Below, piece by piece: positions 24,088 to 43,161 of a stretch of DNA of 64,000 bases; within the stretch, counting starts at the first letter, position 1; each line of letters begins with the position of its first letter. Source of the DNA: an uncultured Chloroflexia bacterium (GTDB lineage Bacteria; Chloroflexota; Limnocylindria; Limnocylindrales; CSP1-4); NCBI GenBank assembly GCA_963760625.1, contig CAVXDU010000002.1, positions 819,869 through 883,868 on the forward strand, in the 5' to 3' direction. The position numbers and the translations under genes are program-made. Below the pieces are notes generated by a model that worked only from the letters and a program-made list of their open reading frames with translations, did no database searches and was not told where the DNA came from.

Positions 24088-25842
24088 CTAGGCTCCGATG
24101 ACGATGAACCCGTCGATGTCGACGCGAGCGCCATGACTGTGGTCATCGGCGGCCCCCAGCACCCTGATCTCGATGGTGTGCGTCCCGTTTGACAGCCGCT
24201 GATGGAACACCACCCGGCGGCTGGCGTGCGAGGTCGACCTGAGGTCGACGATGGCGACCCGTTTCCCGTCGATGGCGATGCGCACGCGCCCCCGGTCGGA
24301 GCCGAGGGTCGACACCAGGGCGATCTGGGAGCCGGTGAACTTGAACCGGGCCCAGCGGCCGATGGTGGCAGTGGTACGGACCGACCCGCCGAACGCGCTG
24401 GTGAGTGTGGCGGGCTTCCAGCCACTGGAATACGTCAGTGCCTCGGATGGCTTGTCCTGCACTGCGCGTATGTGGACCACCTGGTCGCTCGCAGCAACGG
24501 CATTCCCCGCCTCGTCGGTCACGGATGCGCTCGACACGCACCTGGTCCCTGATTTGAGCCAGTGGTCACTGGAGCCCCTGACGGACGAGCGCGGCTCGGC
24601 CCGCCCTTCGGTGCTATCCATGTCCAGGAGTGACGTCCCGCCGCAGACCATCTGCATCTCCGCCGATGCGATCCCTGATGTCCCGTCCTTCGCAGACCAG
24701 GTGACGCGAACGGGAAGCGGACGCTTTCCGGTGCCCACGGTCGCGGTACGAAGGGACACCCGCGGCGCCTTGGCTACGGGTGCCGTCGAATCGACCGTGA
24801 TCCGATCACTGAACACCGGGCCACGGGTGCCATGCGCGTCGCGCGCCTGCACCCGGACACGCCGCTCGCCGTCGGGGCCATCGAGGTGCACCTGTCCGGC
24901 CTCGGCGCGGGGGGTCCAGGAACCCCAGGTCGTGTCGTCGGTCGAGGCCCGGATATGGTCGCCGTCGAGGCCCTGGAGCTCGATGTCCACGCGGCCCCCA
25001 CGGGTGAGCGCCGAGTCACCCGCCACGACCATGCGCCGGGATCGAAGCCGCTCGACCGAGGACCGCGAACCCTTGGCGATGTTGCCGTCGAACTTGCGGC
25101 CGATACCCGGGACCTTCAGGGGACCCTGCTGCCAGAAGGCCCACTGCGTCCACCCCTGGGGCAGGATCGGCGATGCCGCCGTCTTGTTCCAGTAGGCGAC
25201 CCACAGGGGCTGGTCGCCGAAGGTCAGGTCGTTGCCCGTGACCTGGTTCCACATGTGGGCCGAGGTGTAGATCATGACCTTGCGCCCTGTCCGCTGGTAC
25301 ACCTCGTCCACGAGGGTCCTGAGCCTGGACCGGGCCTTGCTTCGGTCCGCCTGACCCAACGACAGCAGGCACTCCACGTCGACCACGGGCGGCAGGGTGT
25401 CAAGCAGCGCACCGTTCGCCTCCATCGTGTCCACGAACAGGTCGGCCTGGCTCGACCCACTCCGTCGGTAGTCGAAGAAGTGGTACGAGCCGACGGCGAT
25501 CCCTTCGGCACGGGCCGCCGCGATATGGGCGCTGTACATGTCATCCACCTTGGATGTGCCCTGGGTCGCCTTCGTGAACACGAACCGGACGCCTGCTGCC
25601 CGGACCAGCTGCATGTCGACCGGGCCATCCCAGTGGCTGATGTCGATGCCCCGGGTGGGCGACGAGGTTGCGTCGCCGCCCTCGACCGATACGTCGCTTG
25701 CCACACCATCGCCAGCCATGGCGGCCACCGTGCTGGGTCCCGAAGCCGACCGGCGACGGCCCCGGATCGGTGGGCGTTGGCACGGGAGTCGGTGTCGGCT
25801 TGGGCGTGGGCGTCGGGGAGCAGCCCCTGCCTCCAGACGCAC
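24088..25842 (-). CDS. GH25 family muramidase (lysozyme) with C-terminal Ig-like domain plus unassigned module
   Basis: Intact 584-aa ORF. GIDISHWDGPVDMQLVRAAGVRFVFTKATQG..YHFF..VVDVE is the GH25 core. A membrane-anchor and Pro/Thr-linker N-terminus (MAMPRHASKG..VFGVGVAAVLALLFVISA..PTPTPKPTPTPVPTPTDP, ORF 25541..26245) joins after a single frame switch near 25740. The true start is therefore probably 26047 or 26041. Confidence 0.85.
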   Translation of the reverse strand: MRLEAGAAPRRPRPSRHRLPCQRPPIRGRRRSASGPSTVAAMAGDGVASDVSVEGGDATSSPTRGIDISHWDGPVDMQLVRAAGVRFVFTKATQGTSKVDDMYSAHIAAARAEGIAVGSYHFFDYRRSGSSQADLFVDTMEANGALLDTLPPVVDVECLLSLGQADRSKARSRLRTLVDEVYQRTGRKVMIYTSAHMWNQVTGNDLTFGDQPLWVAYWNKTAASPILPQGWTQWAFWQQGPLKVPGIGRKFDGNIAKGSRSSVERLRSRRMVVAGDSALTRGGRVDIELQGLDGDHIRASTDDTTWGSWTPRAEAGQVHLDGPDGERRVRVQARDAHGTRGPVFSDRITVDSTAPVAKAPRVSLRTATVGTGKRPLPVRVTWSAKDGTSGIASAEMQMVCGGTSLLDMDSTEGRAEPRSSVRGSSDHWLKSGTRCVSSASVTDEAGNAVAASDQVVHIRAVQDKPSEALTYSSGWKPATLTSAFGGSVRTTATIGRWARFKFTGSQIALVSTLGSDRGRVRIAIDGKRVAIVDLRSTSHASRRVVFHQRLSNGTHTIEIRVLGAADDHSHGARVDIDGFIVIGA

Positions 25843-26198
25843 CTGCGGTCATGCCCGATGGATCGTCGCCACCCATGCGTGCCGCCAGCCCATCGTCGGG
25901 CAGCGTCGCCGAGATGACGAACAGCAGCGCCAGCACGGCTGCCACGCCCACGCCGAAGACACCTGCGGTTGCGGCGGGCGGCCTTCGGGATCGACGTCGG
26001 TGGGACACGCGGGCCCTCCCCTTGCTGGCGTGTCGAGGCATGGCCATGGTCGCATCACGGCCACGGCTCGTCACCACACCGAACGTACGGGTGGCAATGG
26101 GCCCCTCCCGTACCCGGCATCCGGTATGGACCGGCAGTCTAGCCCCGCAAGTGCCGTCCGACCACCCCTGGCGTCCTGGTCCGGCTACCCTTGCGGCC

Positions 26199-40329: not shown

Positions 40330-40761
40330 GCGACGGAAGTCTATGTGCTTCTGTCCGCGACGTCGGTCGGAGATGGCTGCACACCCGTCAGGCGGGCGGT
40401 GTCCCCGGGCACCGGCCGTCCGGGTCACCGCCGGTGGGACCATGGTCCGCTTCCGCCGAGGCCCGGTCCCACCGTCGACGATGTCGGCGGACGGAGGGGT
40501 CGCTGGCGCGCGTTGCTCGGACGCTCACCGGTGGCCCCTCGTCTTTCCGACGGCAGCCCGACGGAGGGGGCCCGGCGCGTCGAGCCGGGCGGCCCGGGGC
40601 CATCGCCGGCACACCTCTGGTCGTCCCGCGTACGCTGTTGGTCGTCGATACTCCTGGCGCTCGCGCACTCGGGAGGCCCGTGGGGTTCGTTGGGAACTGG
40701 CGGGTCCGGGACCCGCGCAGCCGCGTCCGCCATGACCAGCACGGCCGGCGTGGCTCGTCGC

Positions 40762-43161
40762 ATGCGCACTCATGTGGCCACGCCCGCCGCGCGGCCTCGC
40801 TGCGGCGGCTGCGCCCGGTCACGCCCGGCTCGGGACACGGACGCAGGCGTGGCCATGCCGGGGGCACGCGCCGGTCACGGGACGCTCCTGGATCGTGGTC
40901 CTGAAGCCCGGCGCCTGGCGCCGGATGAGGGCAGAGCCCGATGTCCGACTGGACACGCCGGCGGGACGCGTCGCCGCCCGCAGCCGAGCCGCGGCCACCG
41001 ACCGGGCCACGGACCGACTCGCGCGTATCGGAGGCTTTCGGGTCACGTGCACGCTTCGCGTGGGCGGTCCAGGGGTTCGCGGCCACGCTTGACGACCGGA
41101 CAGGTCGTCGGCGCTGCGACGCGACCCTGCCGTCGCACGGGTGGTCCCGACGCGCCGGTGTCCGTCGGGGCGGACACGTGGCCACACGGGGTCCGCGGGT
41201 GCAGGCGGCCAGCGCGGAGACGTCCGTCGGTCCGGACACGGACATCGACGTCGCAGTCATCGACACCGGCATCGGCCCGGTCGGCGGACCGACCGGCTCG
41301 GCGCCGAGCTGGACATCGCGGGCGGCACGGACTGTCGCCGCGGCGGGCAACGGCAACACCAGCGACGGTCATGGCCATGGCACGCACGTGGCGGGCATCA
41401 TCGGCGGCGCGTGACAACGGCGTGGGCGTCGTGGGGGTCGCACCCGGAGCCCGCCTGTGGGCAGTGCGTGTGTTCGACTCGCCAGGGCCGAGGCACCACC
41501 TCCACCGTCATCTGCGGCATCGACTGGGTGACCGAGTGGGTGGTCGCAGCACCCCGGACCGTCCGATGGTCGCCAACATGAGCCTGCGGGGTACCGACGA
41601 CTACGCGAGGCCCGACGGGCTGCGACGCGGCCAGGCCGCGACCCACGCGACCCGGAGCATCAGGCCATCTGCACCGCGACCAGGGCCGGCGTGGTGTTCG
41701 TGGTCGCGGCGGGTAACGAGCGAGCGACGACACGGACGACTACATCCCGGCCCGATACGACGAGGTCATCACGGTCGCCGCCATCTCCGACTTCGATGGC
41801 GCACCCGGCGGCCGCTCGTCGCCAGGGCAGAGGTCGCGGGCTGCTCGGCGCCGTCCGGCAGCGGACCGAGAAGGACGACACGTTCGCGCGATACAGCAAC
41901 GTCGGCACCGCGGTCGACATCGTCGCACCGGGCACCTGCATCCGGTCGCTCGCGCCGGGACCGGATCGAGCGTCCGGACCGCGATCATGAGCGGCACGTC
42001 CATGGCCACGCCCCACGTGACGGGAGCCGTCGCGCGCTACCTCGCCGATCACCCGCGACGCGGACAGCGACCGCGTCCGACGGCAGCTCATCGCCGCGGG
42101 CACCCTCGACTGGGCTGGCCGGCACGACCCCGGACCGGACGAGCCATCCGGAACGGCCGCTGCTGCGGCTGCTCGACGCGGGGGCGCTGACGACCGACGC
42201 GCCCGGCACTCGTCGTCTGGCCCGGCGGCGCGGTGGCCACCGTGGGGCATGGTGACAGCGGGTCGCACGTGCCCTTCGAGATCCAGCGGCGTCGGCGGCC
42301 TGACCGGCGCCGTGGACGTGACCGTCGACGACCTGCCCGCGGGTGTCACGCTCGAGGCGCCCGCGTCGCTCTCCGGACTGGGTGGCCTGCGTGGCACGCT
42401 CGACCTGGACGTCGCCGCGATGGCGCCATCGGGCGACCATCCCCTGCGCTTGACGGCACGCTCCGGAGTCGGACGAAGCGCCGGTGCCGACTTGGACCTG
42501 CAGGTCGACCGTGTCGCACCCGTGATCGGCGCACCCTGGCCGCGCGTCACCCTCCGGTCGGGCGGCACCTACGACGGCTCGGCGCCCGTCCGGCTGGCCT
42601 GGTCGGCCACCGACGACGCGAGCGGCGTCGGGACCGTGGAGCTGCAGCGGCGGTCCGAGACCTGGAAGCGGGTCGCGGTGGCCTGGGCATGACGACTCGG
42701 CCGAGCACCTCGCTCGACAAGGGCGTCGCAGCCAGCTTCCGGGTCCGGGCCACCGATCGGGCCGGCAACTCGGCACGTCTCGAGCGTCCTGTCCGACCCG
42801 CCTCGTGGTGCGCGATTCGTCAGCAGCGACCGGATCCGCTGGCAGGGCCCCTGGCGGACCGCGCACGCTCGGGCGCCACCGGCAGCAGCGTCCGGCGGTC
42901 GGGTGCCGCCGACGCCAGCCGCGACCTGGCCTTCACGGGTCGGGGCGTGGGCATCGTGGCACCCCGGGGACCCGGCCAGCGGCAAGCTGGACATCGCCAT
43001 CGACGGTCAGCCGGTCGCCACCGTGGACCTCGCCGCGCCATCGGTGCCGGCCGCGACGCATCGTGTTCGCCTCCGGTCCGCTCTCGCCGCGGCGACCACA
43101 TCATCACCGTCACGACCCGCAAGGCGGCGCGGAGCTGGACGCCTTCCTGGTCCTGGAGTAG
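40762..43161 (+). pseudogene. S8 family serine peptidase (subtilisin) with I9-like propeptide and C-terminal Ig-like domain plus module, frame interrupted
   Basis: The propeptide is WIVVLKPGA..VQGFAATLDD. The catalytic triad is DIDVAVIDTGIGPV and DGHGHGTHVAGIIG (ORF 40941..41414), with SGTSMATPHVTGAVARYLA (ORF 41987..42190). VVFVVAAGNE is also present (ORF 41691..41990). The C-terminus is RVAPVIGAPWPRVTLRSGG..VRLAWSATDDASGVGTVEL (ORF 42249..42692) then [34 protein letters not shown], with stop at 43161. The start at 40762 is approximate. Confidence 0.75.

What the first reader, a model, noticed from the sequence alone, without database searches (positions are those of the whole stretch)
24088..43161. 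One C-terminal two-domain cassette is shared by three unrelated exoproteins (GH25 muramidase, S8 peptidase, RCC1/cadherin giant)
The last roughly 230 aa of three proteins with different N-terminal functions are homologous.

Distal module, about 115 aa:
- GH25 (24091-24438): LTYSSGWKPATLTSAFGGSVRTTATIGRWARFKFTGSQIALVSTLGSDRGRVRIAIDGKRVAIVDLRS..RRVVFHQRLSNGTHTIEIRV..ARVDIDGFIVIGA
- S8 (about 42790-43161, stitched): [98 protein letters not shown]
- giant protein (about 34615-34990, stitched): IDYSGPWEQVVGQGASGGTLRRSLKPGASFTVTSTADTIGLVMTSGKGQG..TIDL..RNVVTIF..GEHNVTVTV..VEFDGV

Each is preceded by an Ig/FN3-like domain:
- DSTAPVAKAPRVSLR..PVRVTWSAKDGTSGIAS..VTDEAGNA
- DRVAPVIGAPWPRVTLR..PVRLAWSATDDASGVGT..RATDRAGNS
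- VTWSAGKEATQG..YQLRLRAT

I cannot assign the distal module to a named family. Its recurrence on a muramidase, a protease and an adhesin-like protein suggests a common anchoring or substrate-targeting function, for example cell wall or glycan binding.
Basis: partly seen in the sequence, partly recalled or inferred. Interest (0 to 1): 0.65.

Follow-up and report, generated by a model that had tools for sequence, protein, structure and literature searches.

The report
Shared FN3 plus sugar-binding-like tail
Three secreted proteins in this window (a lysozyme-type muramidase, a subtilisin-type protease and an RCC1/Ig-repeat surface protein) end in the same two-domain tail, a fibronectin-III domain followed by a beta-jelly-roll of the carbohydrate-binding-module type. 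The tail is real and very widespread, but it is a divergent member of known domain families, not a new kind of domain.

Summary
The last ~235 aa of the GH25 muramidase (24091-24795, -), the S8 peptidase (42498-43158, +) and the RCC1/He_PIG protein (34699-35297, -) are homologous. Pairwise E-values run from 1e-16 to 1e-4. Frameshift-tolerant profile scores are 137 and 88, against 16.5±2.0 for random genome windows.

Two more intact copies lie elsewhere in the genome, on a second GH25 and on a beta-lactamase-family hydrolase.

The proximal domain is a true FN3. The distal module folds with high confidence (pLDDT 90) as a beta-jelly-roll. Its closest solved relatives are a xanthan-binding module (7EHG), CBM6/35/36 modules and the N-domain of CE2 esterases. 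It matches Pfam CE2_N (PF17996) just below threshold (24 vs 27.9 bits); orthologues and tandem-array relatives pass.

The profile of the whole cassette finds about 69,500 representative proteins; many of these match through the FN3 half alone. Partners include S8, S53, GH16/18/25, NlpC/P60, Amidase_3, M23 and phosphodiester glycosidases.

The most likely role is glycan or cell-wall targeting or retention of exoenzymes. This is inferred and not tested.

The many frame breaks in the S8 and RCC1 genes are most likely assembly indels. rpoB and fabI are also broken, and same-genus genomes carry intact versions.

Verdict: ordinary to moderately interesting.

The parts
24088..26047 (-). GH25 muramidase gene carrying the cassette. 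The open frame 24088-25842 is the 3' part. The true N-terminus (signal anchor and Pro/Thr linker) lies in another frame, with a frame switch around 25.73-25.85 kb.
   Evidence: (Glyco_hydro_25, E 8e-42). The orthologue P0005 has the matching N-terminus.
25129..25647 (-). GH25 catalytic domain (P0001 residues 66-238).
24448..24795 (-). Proximal FN3-like domain of the GH25 copy. It carries a lineage-specific insertion with two Cys.
   Evidence: beta-sandwich, pLDDT ~90; the profile hits titin and ChiA1 FN3 domains.
24091..24447 (-). Distal jelly-roll module of the GH25 copy (119 aa). This is the intact reference copy.
   Evidence: CE2_N 22.7-24.1 bits; pLDDT 90.2; 7EHG, 3NQH, CBM6/35/36, CE2 N-domain.
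34615..38651 (-). Gene for a secreted RCC1-repeat plus He_PIG-repeat protein (~1,345 aa) ending in the cassette. It is read in several frames.
   Evidence: RCC1_2 E 2e-23; He_PIG E 4e-15 and 1e-13; same-genus homologues L015 and L016.
35043..35297 (-). Proximal FN3-like domain of the RCC1 protein.
34699..35040 (-). Distal jelly-roll module of the RCC1 protein, read across about 4-5 frame switches. It is a variant with a Cys...Cys loop.
   Evidence: first two thirds. (tail weak against the profile). (tail aligns to intact L015, E 7e-11).
41055..43161 (+). S8 (subtilase) peptidase gene ending in the cassette. The Asp, His and Ser motifs are all present but lie in different frames.
   Evidence: Peptidase_S8 on in-frame pieces; intact syntenic S8+cassette in G016, L006.
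42498..42793 (+). Proximal FN3-like domain of the S8 copy.
42797..43158 (+). Distal jelly-roll module of the S8 copy. It is followed directly by the stop at 43159-43161.
   Evidence: tail score 41.6.
38866..40037 (-). Context only: an Amidase_3 (N-acetylmuramoyl-L-alanine amidase) gene just upstream of the RCC1 gene. It has no cassette.
   Evidence: Amidase_3, E 2e-16.

Best explanation
The shared tail is a modular pair. An FN3 domain acts as a spacer. It is followed by a ~120-aa beta-jelly-roll of the CBM6/35/36/84 and CE2-N type (galactose-binding-domain-like).

Shown:
- The copies are homologous.
- The fold assignment holds.
- The module recurs on many unrelated secreted enzymes.
- The jelly-roll also occurs alone in tandem arrays.

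Inferred: the jelly-roll binds a glycan, most plausibly peptidoglycan or another wall-associated or extracellular polysaccharide. Binding would concentrate the attached catalytic or adhesive domain on that polymer, or hold it at the producer's own envelope. The FN3 would hold the binding module away from the enzyme.

The cassette has been joined to different catalytic domains repeatedly by domain shuffling. The window's genus is especially rich in it.
For: Fold:
- AF2 cassette model: pLDDT 89.4, pTM 0.84. Distal module alone: pLDDT 90.2.
- All significant Foldseek matches of the distal module that also have a good TM-score are carbohydrate-binding jelly-rolls or CE2 N-domains. These are 7EHG MiXBM (27-28% identity, TM 0.62-0.68), the 3NQH C-terminal domain (TMq 0.72), the 6F2P xanthan lyase module, CBM6 (2CDP, 8J3X), CBM35 (2W47, 2WZ8), CBM36 (7AY3, 1UX7) and CE2 (2WAO, 6HFZ, TMq up to 0.74).
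- Xanthan-binding modules of this type lower the Km of their enzymes (PMC10049358, PMC10881899).

Sequence:
- CE2_N and fn3 are the two Pfam families most often matched by cassette members, 13 and 16 of 35.
- CE2_N passes its cut-off in tandem-array relatives.
- The proximal profile hits FN3 of titin and chitinase A1.

Partners:
- In this genome: GH25 twice, Beta-lactamase PF00144, S8, and RCC1/He_PIG.
- Elsewhere: phosphodiester glycosidase with or without metallophos, S8, S53, GH16, GH18, GH25, beta-helix, FG-GAP, Kelch+trypsin and reprolysin-like.
- With arrays of the jelly-roll: NlpC/P60, Amidase_3 and M23.
- Many of these partners are wall hydrolases.

Arrangement: among the 150 best representative hits there are 668 jelly-rolls. 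Of these, 383 follow another jelly-roll and 84 follow an FN3. Repetition for avidity is typical of lectin and CBM modules.

Secretion: signal or anchor peptides are seen on GH25, GH25b, the beta-lactamase-family protein and the RCC1 protein.
Against: - No binding has been measured for any member.
- The window copy is below Pfam's CE2_N cut-off.
- The distal profile finds no solved structure by sequence (best E 0.0035, a spurious repeat protein; 3NQH at 0.085).
- As far as I recall, the CE2 N-domain itself is not an established independent sugar binder, so similarity to it does not prove binding.
- Partners such as S8, S53 and RCC1 do not act on glycans, so the ligand could be something else.
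- Ligand-site residues could not be mapped because no coordinates were available to me.
Confidence: 0.6

Rival explanations
1. The cassette is a passive structural or spacer element, or a protein-protein interaction module (for example for oligomerisation or docking to a surface-layer protein). It would have no glycan ligand.
For: - FN3 and jelly-roll domains often serve as spacers.
- The CE2 N-domain is not an established independent binder (my recollection).
- Several partners are proteases or RCC1 propellers.
- Some arrays co-occur with cohesin domains.
Against: - All good structural matches are carbohydrate-binding modules.
- Conserved aromatic and acidic positions (invariant Trp in the YxGxW motif, RVDxD near the C-terminus) suggest a conserved site rather than a mere spacer.
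- Tandem arrays on wall hydrolases fit avidity binding.
Confidence: 0.22
2. The distal domain is a C-terminal sorting or secretion signal domain, analogous in logic to the type IX secretion CTD. It would be recognised by an export or attachment machinery.
For: - It lies at the extreme C-terminus of most single-copy carriers (C-terminal gap 0-14 aa in most of the 134 proteins).
- It is found on very diverse cargo.
Against: - About 50 of 134 carriers have it internally, followed by a ~265-305-aa metallophos domain.
- It occurs in arrays of 5-10 copies and at N-terminal positions (P0019).
- No conserved partner gene was seen next to the window copies.
Confidence: 0.05
3. The S8 and RCC1 genes are true pseudogenes, so only the GH25 copy is functional in this organism.
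For: - There are about 7 frame switches in 620 bp of the S8 cassette. That is far denser than in rpoB, which has 1-2 in 3.4 kb.
- No reads could be found to check.
Against: - Essential or housekeeping genes are also broken. rpoB is split into at least two frames, and fabI next door has about 4 switches in 0.8 kb.
- Genome completeness is only 60% for 3.75 Mb in 16 contigs.
- There are about 1.0-1.35 same-strand frame switches per kb genome-wide, in a patchy pattern.
- The catalytic motifs of S8 and the family motifs of the cassette are intact in the read-through, with no in-frame stops along the aligned path.
- Same-genus genomes carry intact S8+cassette and RCC1+He_PIG+cassette genes, the former in synteny.
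Confidence: 0.15
4. The similarity is chance, compositional (high GC, Ala/Arg/Gly-rich), or an artefact of stitching frames.
Against: - In-frame pieces alone give E 1e-12 to 1e-13.
- The frameshift-tolerant scores are more than 30 standard deviations above random genome windows.
- Intact homologues exist.
Confidence: 0.01

Closest known systems
Pfam CE2_N (PF17996), the N-terminal jelly-roll of family-2 carbohydrate esterases (structures 2WAO, 2WAA, 6HFZ, 3U37)
   Same: It is the only Pfam family matched on the distal module: 22.7-24.1 bits in the window copy and 13 of 35 cassette members, with tandem-array relatives well over the cut-off. The fold is the same (TMq up to 0.74).
   Different: The window copy is below the gathering score (27.9). 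Here the module is C-terminal, is preceded by an FN3, and is attached to non-esterase enzymes. No SGNH domain follows.
Xanthan-binding module MiXBM (PDB 7EHG) and the CBM84-type modules of xanthan lyases and xanthanases (6F2P)
   Same: These are the best structural matches: 27-28% identity in the structural alignment, TM 0.62-0.68, with similar size (~130 aa). They are C-terminal accessory binding modules that lower Km (PMC10049358).
   Different: 7EHG is not retrieved by the sequence profile at E<=10. The host enzymes here are muramidase, protease and adhesin-like proteins, and nothing points to xanthan.
CBM6 / CBM35 / CBM36 beta-jelly-roll carbohydrate-binding modules
   Same: Same fold, with Foldseek E 1e-4 to 1e-3 and TM 0.53-0.67. 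They show the same modular use on secreted enzymes and also occur in tandem.
   Different: Sequence identity is only 10-19%. There is no significant Pfam CBM_6 or CBM_35 match to the cassette. Calcium and ligand residues were not verified.
FN3-plus-CBM tails of bacterial glycoside hydrolases, for example Bacillus circulans chitinase A1 (FN3 structure 1K85)
   Same: The architecture follows the same logic of catalytic domain, FN3 spacer and terminal binding module. The cassette's FN3 profile hits the ChiA1 FN3 (E 1.2e-7).
   Different: The terminal module is of a different family. ChiA1 ends in a small chitin-binding domain (CBM12, by my recollection), not a jelly-roll.
C-terminal domain of BT_2959 glycosyl hydrolase (PDB 3NQH)
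   Same: TMq 0.72 at 21% identity. It is the only fold match that also appears, weakly, in the sequence-profile search (E 0.085), with the same FTG...VDxY...H-T-hydrophobic strand pattern.
   Different: It is an uncharacterised structural-genomics entry, so it gives no functional information.

Membership tests
Fibronectin type III (Pfam fn3, PF00041), proximal domain | Sequence match to the fn3 profile or to solved FN3 domains | tested here: met
   16 of 35 cassette members match fn3 at E<=0.01. The cassette profile hits titin FN3 arrays (E 3e-28), ChiA1 FN3 1K85 (1e-7) and the consensus FN3 4U3H (1e-6). The window's GH25 copy itself gives only weak Ig-like hits (Big_1, Invasin_D3) because of an insertion.
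Fibronectin type III, proximal domain | Seven-strand beta-sandwich fold | tested here: met
   The AF2 model shows an all-beta proximal half with seven strands between residues 21 and 122, at pLDDT mostly above 90.
Pfam CE2_N (PF17996), distal module | Score at or above the curated gathering threshold (27.9 bits) | tested here: inconclusive
   Window GH25 copy: 22.7 bits (whole protein) and 24.1 bits (cassette alone), E 4e-5 to 1e-4. GH25b: 12.1 bits. The precomputed Pfam list includes PF17996 for orthologues P0005, P0007, P0008, P0009 and P0016. Array relatives score 60-133 bits.
Pfam CE2_N, distal module | Jelly-roll fold superposable on CE2 N-domains | tested here: met
   2WAO, 2WAB and 6HFZ match at TMq 0.59-0.74, Foldseek probability 1.00.
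CAZy CBM6/35/36/84 | Significant sequence similarity to a founding member | tested here: not met
   There is no Pfam CBM_6 or CBM_35 hit on the cassette. The distal profile does not retrieve 7EHG, 2CDP, 2W47 or 1UX7 at E<=10. Only fold-level similarity is seen.
CAZy CBM (any family) | Demonstrated carbohydrate binding by the isolated module | not testable with these tools
   This needs pull-down, ITC or glycan-array experiments.
C-terminal sorting domains (T9SS-CTD-like logic) | Strictly C-terminal, single copy, with a dedicated machinery | tested here: not met
   The domain is internal in about 50 of 134 carriers. It is N-terminal in P0019. It forms arrays of up to 10 or more copies.

The most novel reading that the evidence does not exclude
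The FN3+jelly-roll cassette is a dedicated, so far unrecognised, non-covalent cell-envelope retention module. It would be a functional counterpart of SLH, LysM or CWB2 domains. The proposed mechanism is binding to a lineage-specific wall glycopolymer. By this route this group of uncultured soil bacteria would display muramidases, DD-peptidase-like enzymes, proteases and adhesins on their own surface. The family expanded within the genus (3-10 cassette or FN3 hits per genome).
Probability: 0.25. Interest if true: 0.5.

Novelty: new member of a known kind. Interest (0 to 1): 0.3.

Why it matters
Function has not been tested for any member of this module family, and routine Pfam annotation leaves it unlabelled on many carriers. 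The cassette profile finds about 69,500 representative clusters at E<=1e-3 and 6,500 at E<=1e-30, though many match through the FN3 half alone. Calling the distal module a CBM-like jelly-roll at the edge of CE2_N gives an annotation handle. It also gives a testable ligand hypothesis, peptidoglycan or wall polysaccharide, for many metagenomic exoenzymes.

It does not open a new mechanism, because the logic of FN3 spacer plus binding module is classical.

On the practical side, the case shows that this assembly's broken frames should not be read as gene decay.

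Tried and rejected
- Reads: no public run holds 40000-43400, so the frames could not be checked against raw data.
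- The search for related loci with the cassette alignment failed for lack of a conserved 7-10-column stretch. With P0001 it found only one distant GH25, so no organism names were obtained.
- The listing of cluster members returned no names. The phylum is therefore not established here. Source names on homologues say Chloroflexota or Ca. Limnocylindria.
- Literature: the search for 'CE2_N/PF17996' returned only chemistry noise. No paper was found on this cassette or on GH25+FN3+CBM tails.
- Pfam on the X-joined S8 cassette gave nothing (protein 10). The joints and divergence probably keep it under the filters, and the family profile is what detects it.
- My first GC3 filter for coding ORFs was too strict. 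I replaced it with a codon-model Viterbi, which still undercounts dense switches because it falls back to 'non-coding'.
- The profile-only alignment of the RCC1 tail was not significant. It was rescued by an intact same-genus homologue.
- Tree: the S8 and GH25b cassettes of this genome group with the GH25 clade (99/99) rather than with S8 cassettes from elsewhere, which hints at lineage-specific shuffling. The tool flags long-branch and composition problems for exactly these rows, so I do not rely on it.
- Chance similarity, a sorting-signal role and pseudogenisation were considered and ranked low (see rivals).

Full report
**What is there**

The window is ~70% GC and lies in a 3.75-Mb, 16-contig genome. 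The GH25 ORF 24088-25842(-) is open. It has a Glyco_hydro_25 domain at residues 66-238 (E 8e-42) and a sub-threshold CE2_N match at 498-561 (22.7 bits, cut-off 27.9).

tblastn with its last 244 aa finds two intact paralogues elsewhere in the genome. One is a second GH25 (C13:261974-263905). The other is a Beta-lactamase-family (PF00144) protein (C2:285141-287015). Both end in the same ~235 aa.

**Checking the two broken copies**

A profile of 19 cassettes hits the window at the S8 C-terminus in two frames (E 1.9e-13 and 4.5e-12) and in the RCC1 gene (E 1.1e-12).

I wrote a frameshift-tolerant profile aligner. Its results were:
- S8, 42498-43117: score 136.8 with 7 frame switches.
- RCC1 protein, 35285-34869: score 87.9 with 2 frame switches.
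- 120 random 860-bp windows of the same genome: 16.5±2.0 (maximum 23.2).

The last ~60 aa of the RCC1 copy are too diverged for the profile alone (18.5 vs 13.3±4.4). They do align to the intact tail of a 1,144-aa same-genus homologue (L015; E 7e-11), including a shared Cys...Cys loop.

Pairwise BLASTP of the read-through cassettes:
- GH25 vs S8: E 1.5e-16 (30.6% over 242 aa).
- S8 vs RCC1: E 2e-10.
- GH25 vs RCC1: E 1e-4.

**The genes themselves**

In-frame pieces give RCC1_2 (E 2e-23), He_PIG (4e-15 and 1e-13), Peptidase_S8 (the pieces carrying the His and Ser motifs), Amidase_3 (2e-16) and enoyl-ACP reductase (9e-20). The layout is:
- fabI (33.8-34.6 kb, -).
- The RCC1/He_PIG/cassette gene (34615-38651, -).
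- An Amidase_3 gene (38866-40037, -).
- The S8/cassette gene (~41055-43161, +).

The GH25 gene really begins near 26047 with a signal anchor and a Pro/Thr linker. These match the N-terminus of orthologue P0005 but lie in another frame. GH25b, the beta-lactamase-family protein and the RCC1 protein also have N-terminal hydrophobic signal-like segments.

**Are the frame breaks real?**

Probably not, for these reasons:
- Estimated completeness is 60% for a 3.75-Mb, 16-contig assembly.
- rpoB is split over at least two frames.
- fabI has about four switches in 0.8 kb.
- A codon-model Viterbi finds 1.0-1.35 same-strand frame switches per kb on three contigs. They are patchy within the window: none in 12-14, 20-22 and 24-26 kb, and 5-9 per 2 kb in several other bins.
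- The S8 Asp, His and Ser motifs and the cassette motifs are all preserved in the read-through.
- Same-genus genomes have intact S8+cassette genes (L006, syntenic with the window's downstream genes; also L007-L009) and RCC1+He_PIG+cassette genes (L015, L016).

I could not find reads, so true pseudogenisation keeps about 15%. Earlier notes of this scan reached the same view.

**What the cassette is**

*Proximal half.* The 35-sequence profile A1 hits solved FN3 domains: titin (E 3e-28), chitinase A1 1K85 (1e-7) and consensus FN3. Pfam fn3 is matched by 16 of 35 members.

*Distal half.* CE2_N is the only recurrent Pfam match. It is found in 13 of 35 members (best 8e-8), at 24.1 bits in the window copy, and it is listed in the precomputed Pfam annotation for the orthologues.

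*Structure prediction.* AlphaFold2 with A1 gives pLDDT 89.4 and pTM 0.84, all-beta. The distal module alone (A2) gives pLDDT 90.2.

*Fold search.* Foldseek against the PDB with the distal model returns:
- 7EHG, a xanthan-binding module: 27-28% identity, TM 0.62-0.68.
- The C-terminal domain of BT_2959 (3NQH): TMq 0.72.
- The 6F2P xanthan-lyase module.
- CBM6 (2CDP, 8J3X), CBM35 (2W47, 2WZ8, 2W3J) and CBM36 (7AY3, 1UX7).
- CE2 N-domains (2WAO, 2WAB, 6HFZ): TMq up to 0.74.

By sequence the distal profile finds no solved structure convincingly; 3NQH appears at E 0.085.

The module is therefore a divergent jelly-roll of the CBM6/35/36/84 and CE2-N type. It is not an unassignable fold.

**Distribution and partners**

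Two word-indexed searches with the cassette region found 16 and 307 proteins. Their partners are phosphodiester glycosidase (PF09992) with or without metallophos, Peptidase_S8, the S53 pro-domain, GH16, GH18, GH25, beta-helix/NosD, RCC1, FG-GAP, Kelch+trypsin and reprolysin-like.

In 134 of these proteins the two domains are hit as one unit. The unit is usually at the very C-terminus, but it is internal when a metallophos domain follows.

The exhaustive profile search found 69,571 representative proteins at E<=1e-3 and 6,507 at E<=1e-30. Many of the hits come through FN3 alone.

Among the top 150 hits there are 668 jelly-rolls. Of these, 383 follow another jelly-roll, 84 follow an FN3 and 91 are C-terminal. 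FJFJFJ repeats also occur. Ten proteins chosen from the top hits, most of them arrays, carry NlpC/P60, Amidase_3, Peptidase_M23 or cohesin domains, and there CE2_N passes its cut-off.

All 18 same-genus genomes have 3-10 cassette or FN3 hits, against 1 of 12 in the small-genome sister family. In an even sample of the phylum, 9 of 80 genomes have the jelly-roll at E<=1e-15.

A maximum-likelihood tree shows partner labels clustered but polyphyletic (S8 at least 2 origins, GH25 at least 3), which means repeated shuffling. The grouping of this genome's S8 cassette with the GH25 clade is flagged as a long-branch risk.

**How it most likely works**

The shown steps are homology, fold, modularity and secretion signals. 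The rest is inference.

The jelly-roll most likely binds a polysaccharide. Because GH25, DD-peptidase-like, NlpC/P60, Amidase_3 and M23 partners are so frequent, the ligand is most plausibly peptidoglycan or a wall-associated glycopolymer. Binding would concentrate the enzyme on its substrate or retain it at the envelope, with FN3 as spacer. This is as in classical FN3+CBM tails (ChiA1) and in xanthan-binding modules that lower Km (PMC10049358, PMC10881899).

The invariant positions are Trp in YxGxW, several Gly, GT, and RVDxD at the last strand. They are candidates for a ligand site or a structural-metal site, but I could not map them on coordinates.

Rivals:
- A ligand-free spacer or protein-docking role (0.22).
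- A sorting-signal role (0.05). This is contradicted by the internal and arrayed copies.
- Pseudogenes, for the two broken carriers (0.15).
- Chance (0.01).

**Verdict**

The novelty claim is largely removed, because the module falls at the edge of PF17996 and has a CBM-type fold. It is a new, very large and functionally uncharacterised subfamily of a known kind. Interest is modest.

Noticed in passing
window 25730-26047 (-): The GH25 gene's real N-terminus lies upstream of the listed ORF in a different frame. It starts MAMPRH and continues with a hydrophobic anchor and then a Pro/Thr linker. The 'intact' GH25 gene therefore also has one frame switch, and the GTG start at 25842 is spurious.
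   Followed up: partly
window 38866-40037 (-): An Amidase_3 wall amidase gene sits directly upstream of the RCC1 gene. Its ~150-aa C-terminal part (read in a second frame) matches no Pfam family.
   Followed up: partly
window 33779-34591 (-); genome C8:38771-42101: The housekeeping genes fabI and rpoB are split over several frames. With 60% estimated completeness in a 16-contig assembly, this points to patchy assembly indels across the genome. Some stretches (12-14, 20-22 and 24-26 kb) are clean.
   Followed up: yes
window 34699-34880 (-); L015: The RCC1-type distal module has a conserved Cys...Cys loop (C-x-D-x7-8-C before the 'TxDL' strand). It is shared with an intact same-genus homologue and absent from the GH25 and S8 copies, and it may be a disulfide-stabilised variant.
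   Followed up: no
window 24560-24690 (-): The FN3 of the GH25-type cassette carries a ~25-aa insertion with two conserved Cys. It is shared by orthologues P0005-P0009 and absent from other cassettes.
   Followed up: no
window 43361-44656 and L006: The genes downstream of the S8 gene (the glycogen locus side) are syntenic with the neighbours of the intact S8+cassette gene in a same-genus genome (G016).
   Followed up: partly
genome C2:343508-343810 (-), C4:297845-298105 (+): Two further hits to the FN3 half only (E 3e-16 and 3e-12), with no jelly-roll. These are other FN3-bearing proteins of the same genome.
   Followed up: no
tree of 139 cassettes: This genome's S8 and second-GH25 cassettes group with the GH25 clade (99/99) rather than with S8 cassettes from other lineages. 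This may reflect lineage-specific domain shuffling, but the rows are flagged for long-branch and composition problems.
   Followed up: partly
window 24800-25040 (-): Between the GH25 domain and the cassette lies another ~75-aa beta-rich segment (RMVVAGD...VRVQARD). It is also present in GH25b and the orthologues, hits the FN3 profile only weakly, and was not assigned.
   Followed up: no
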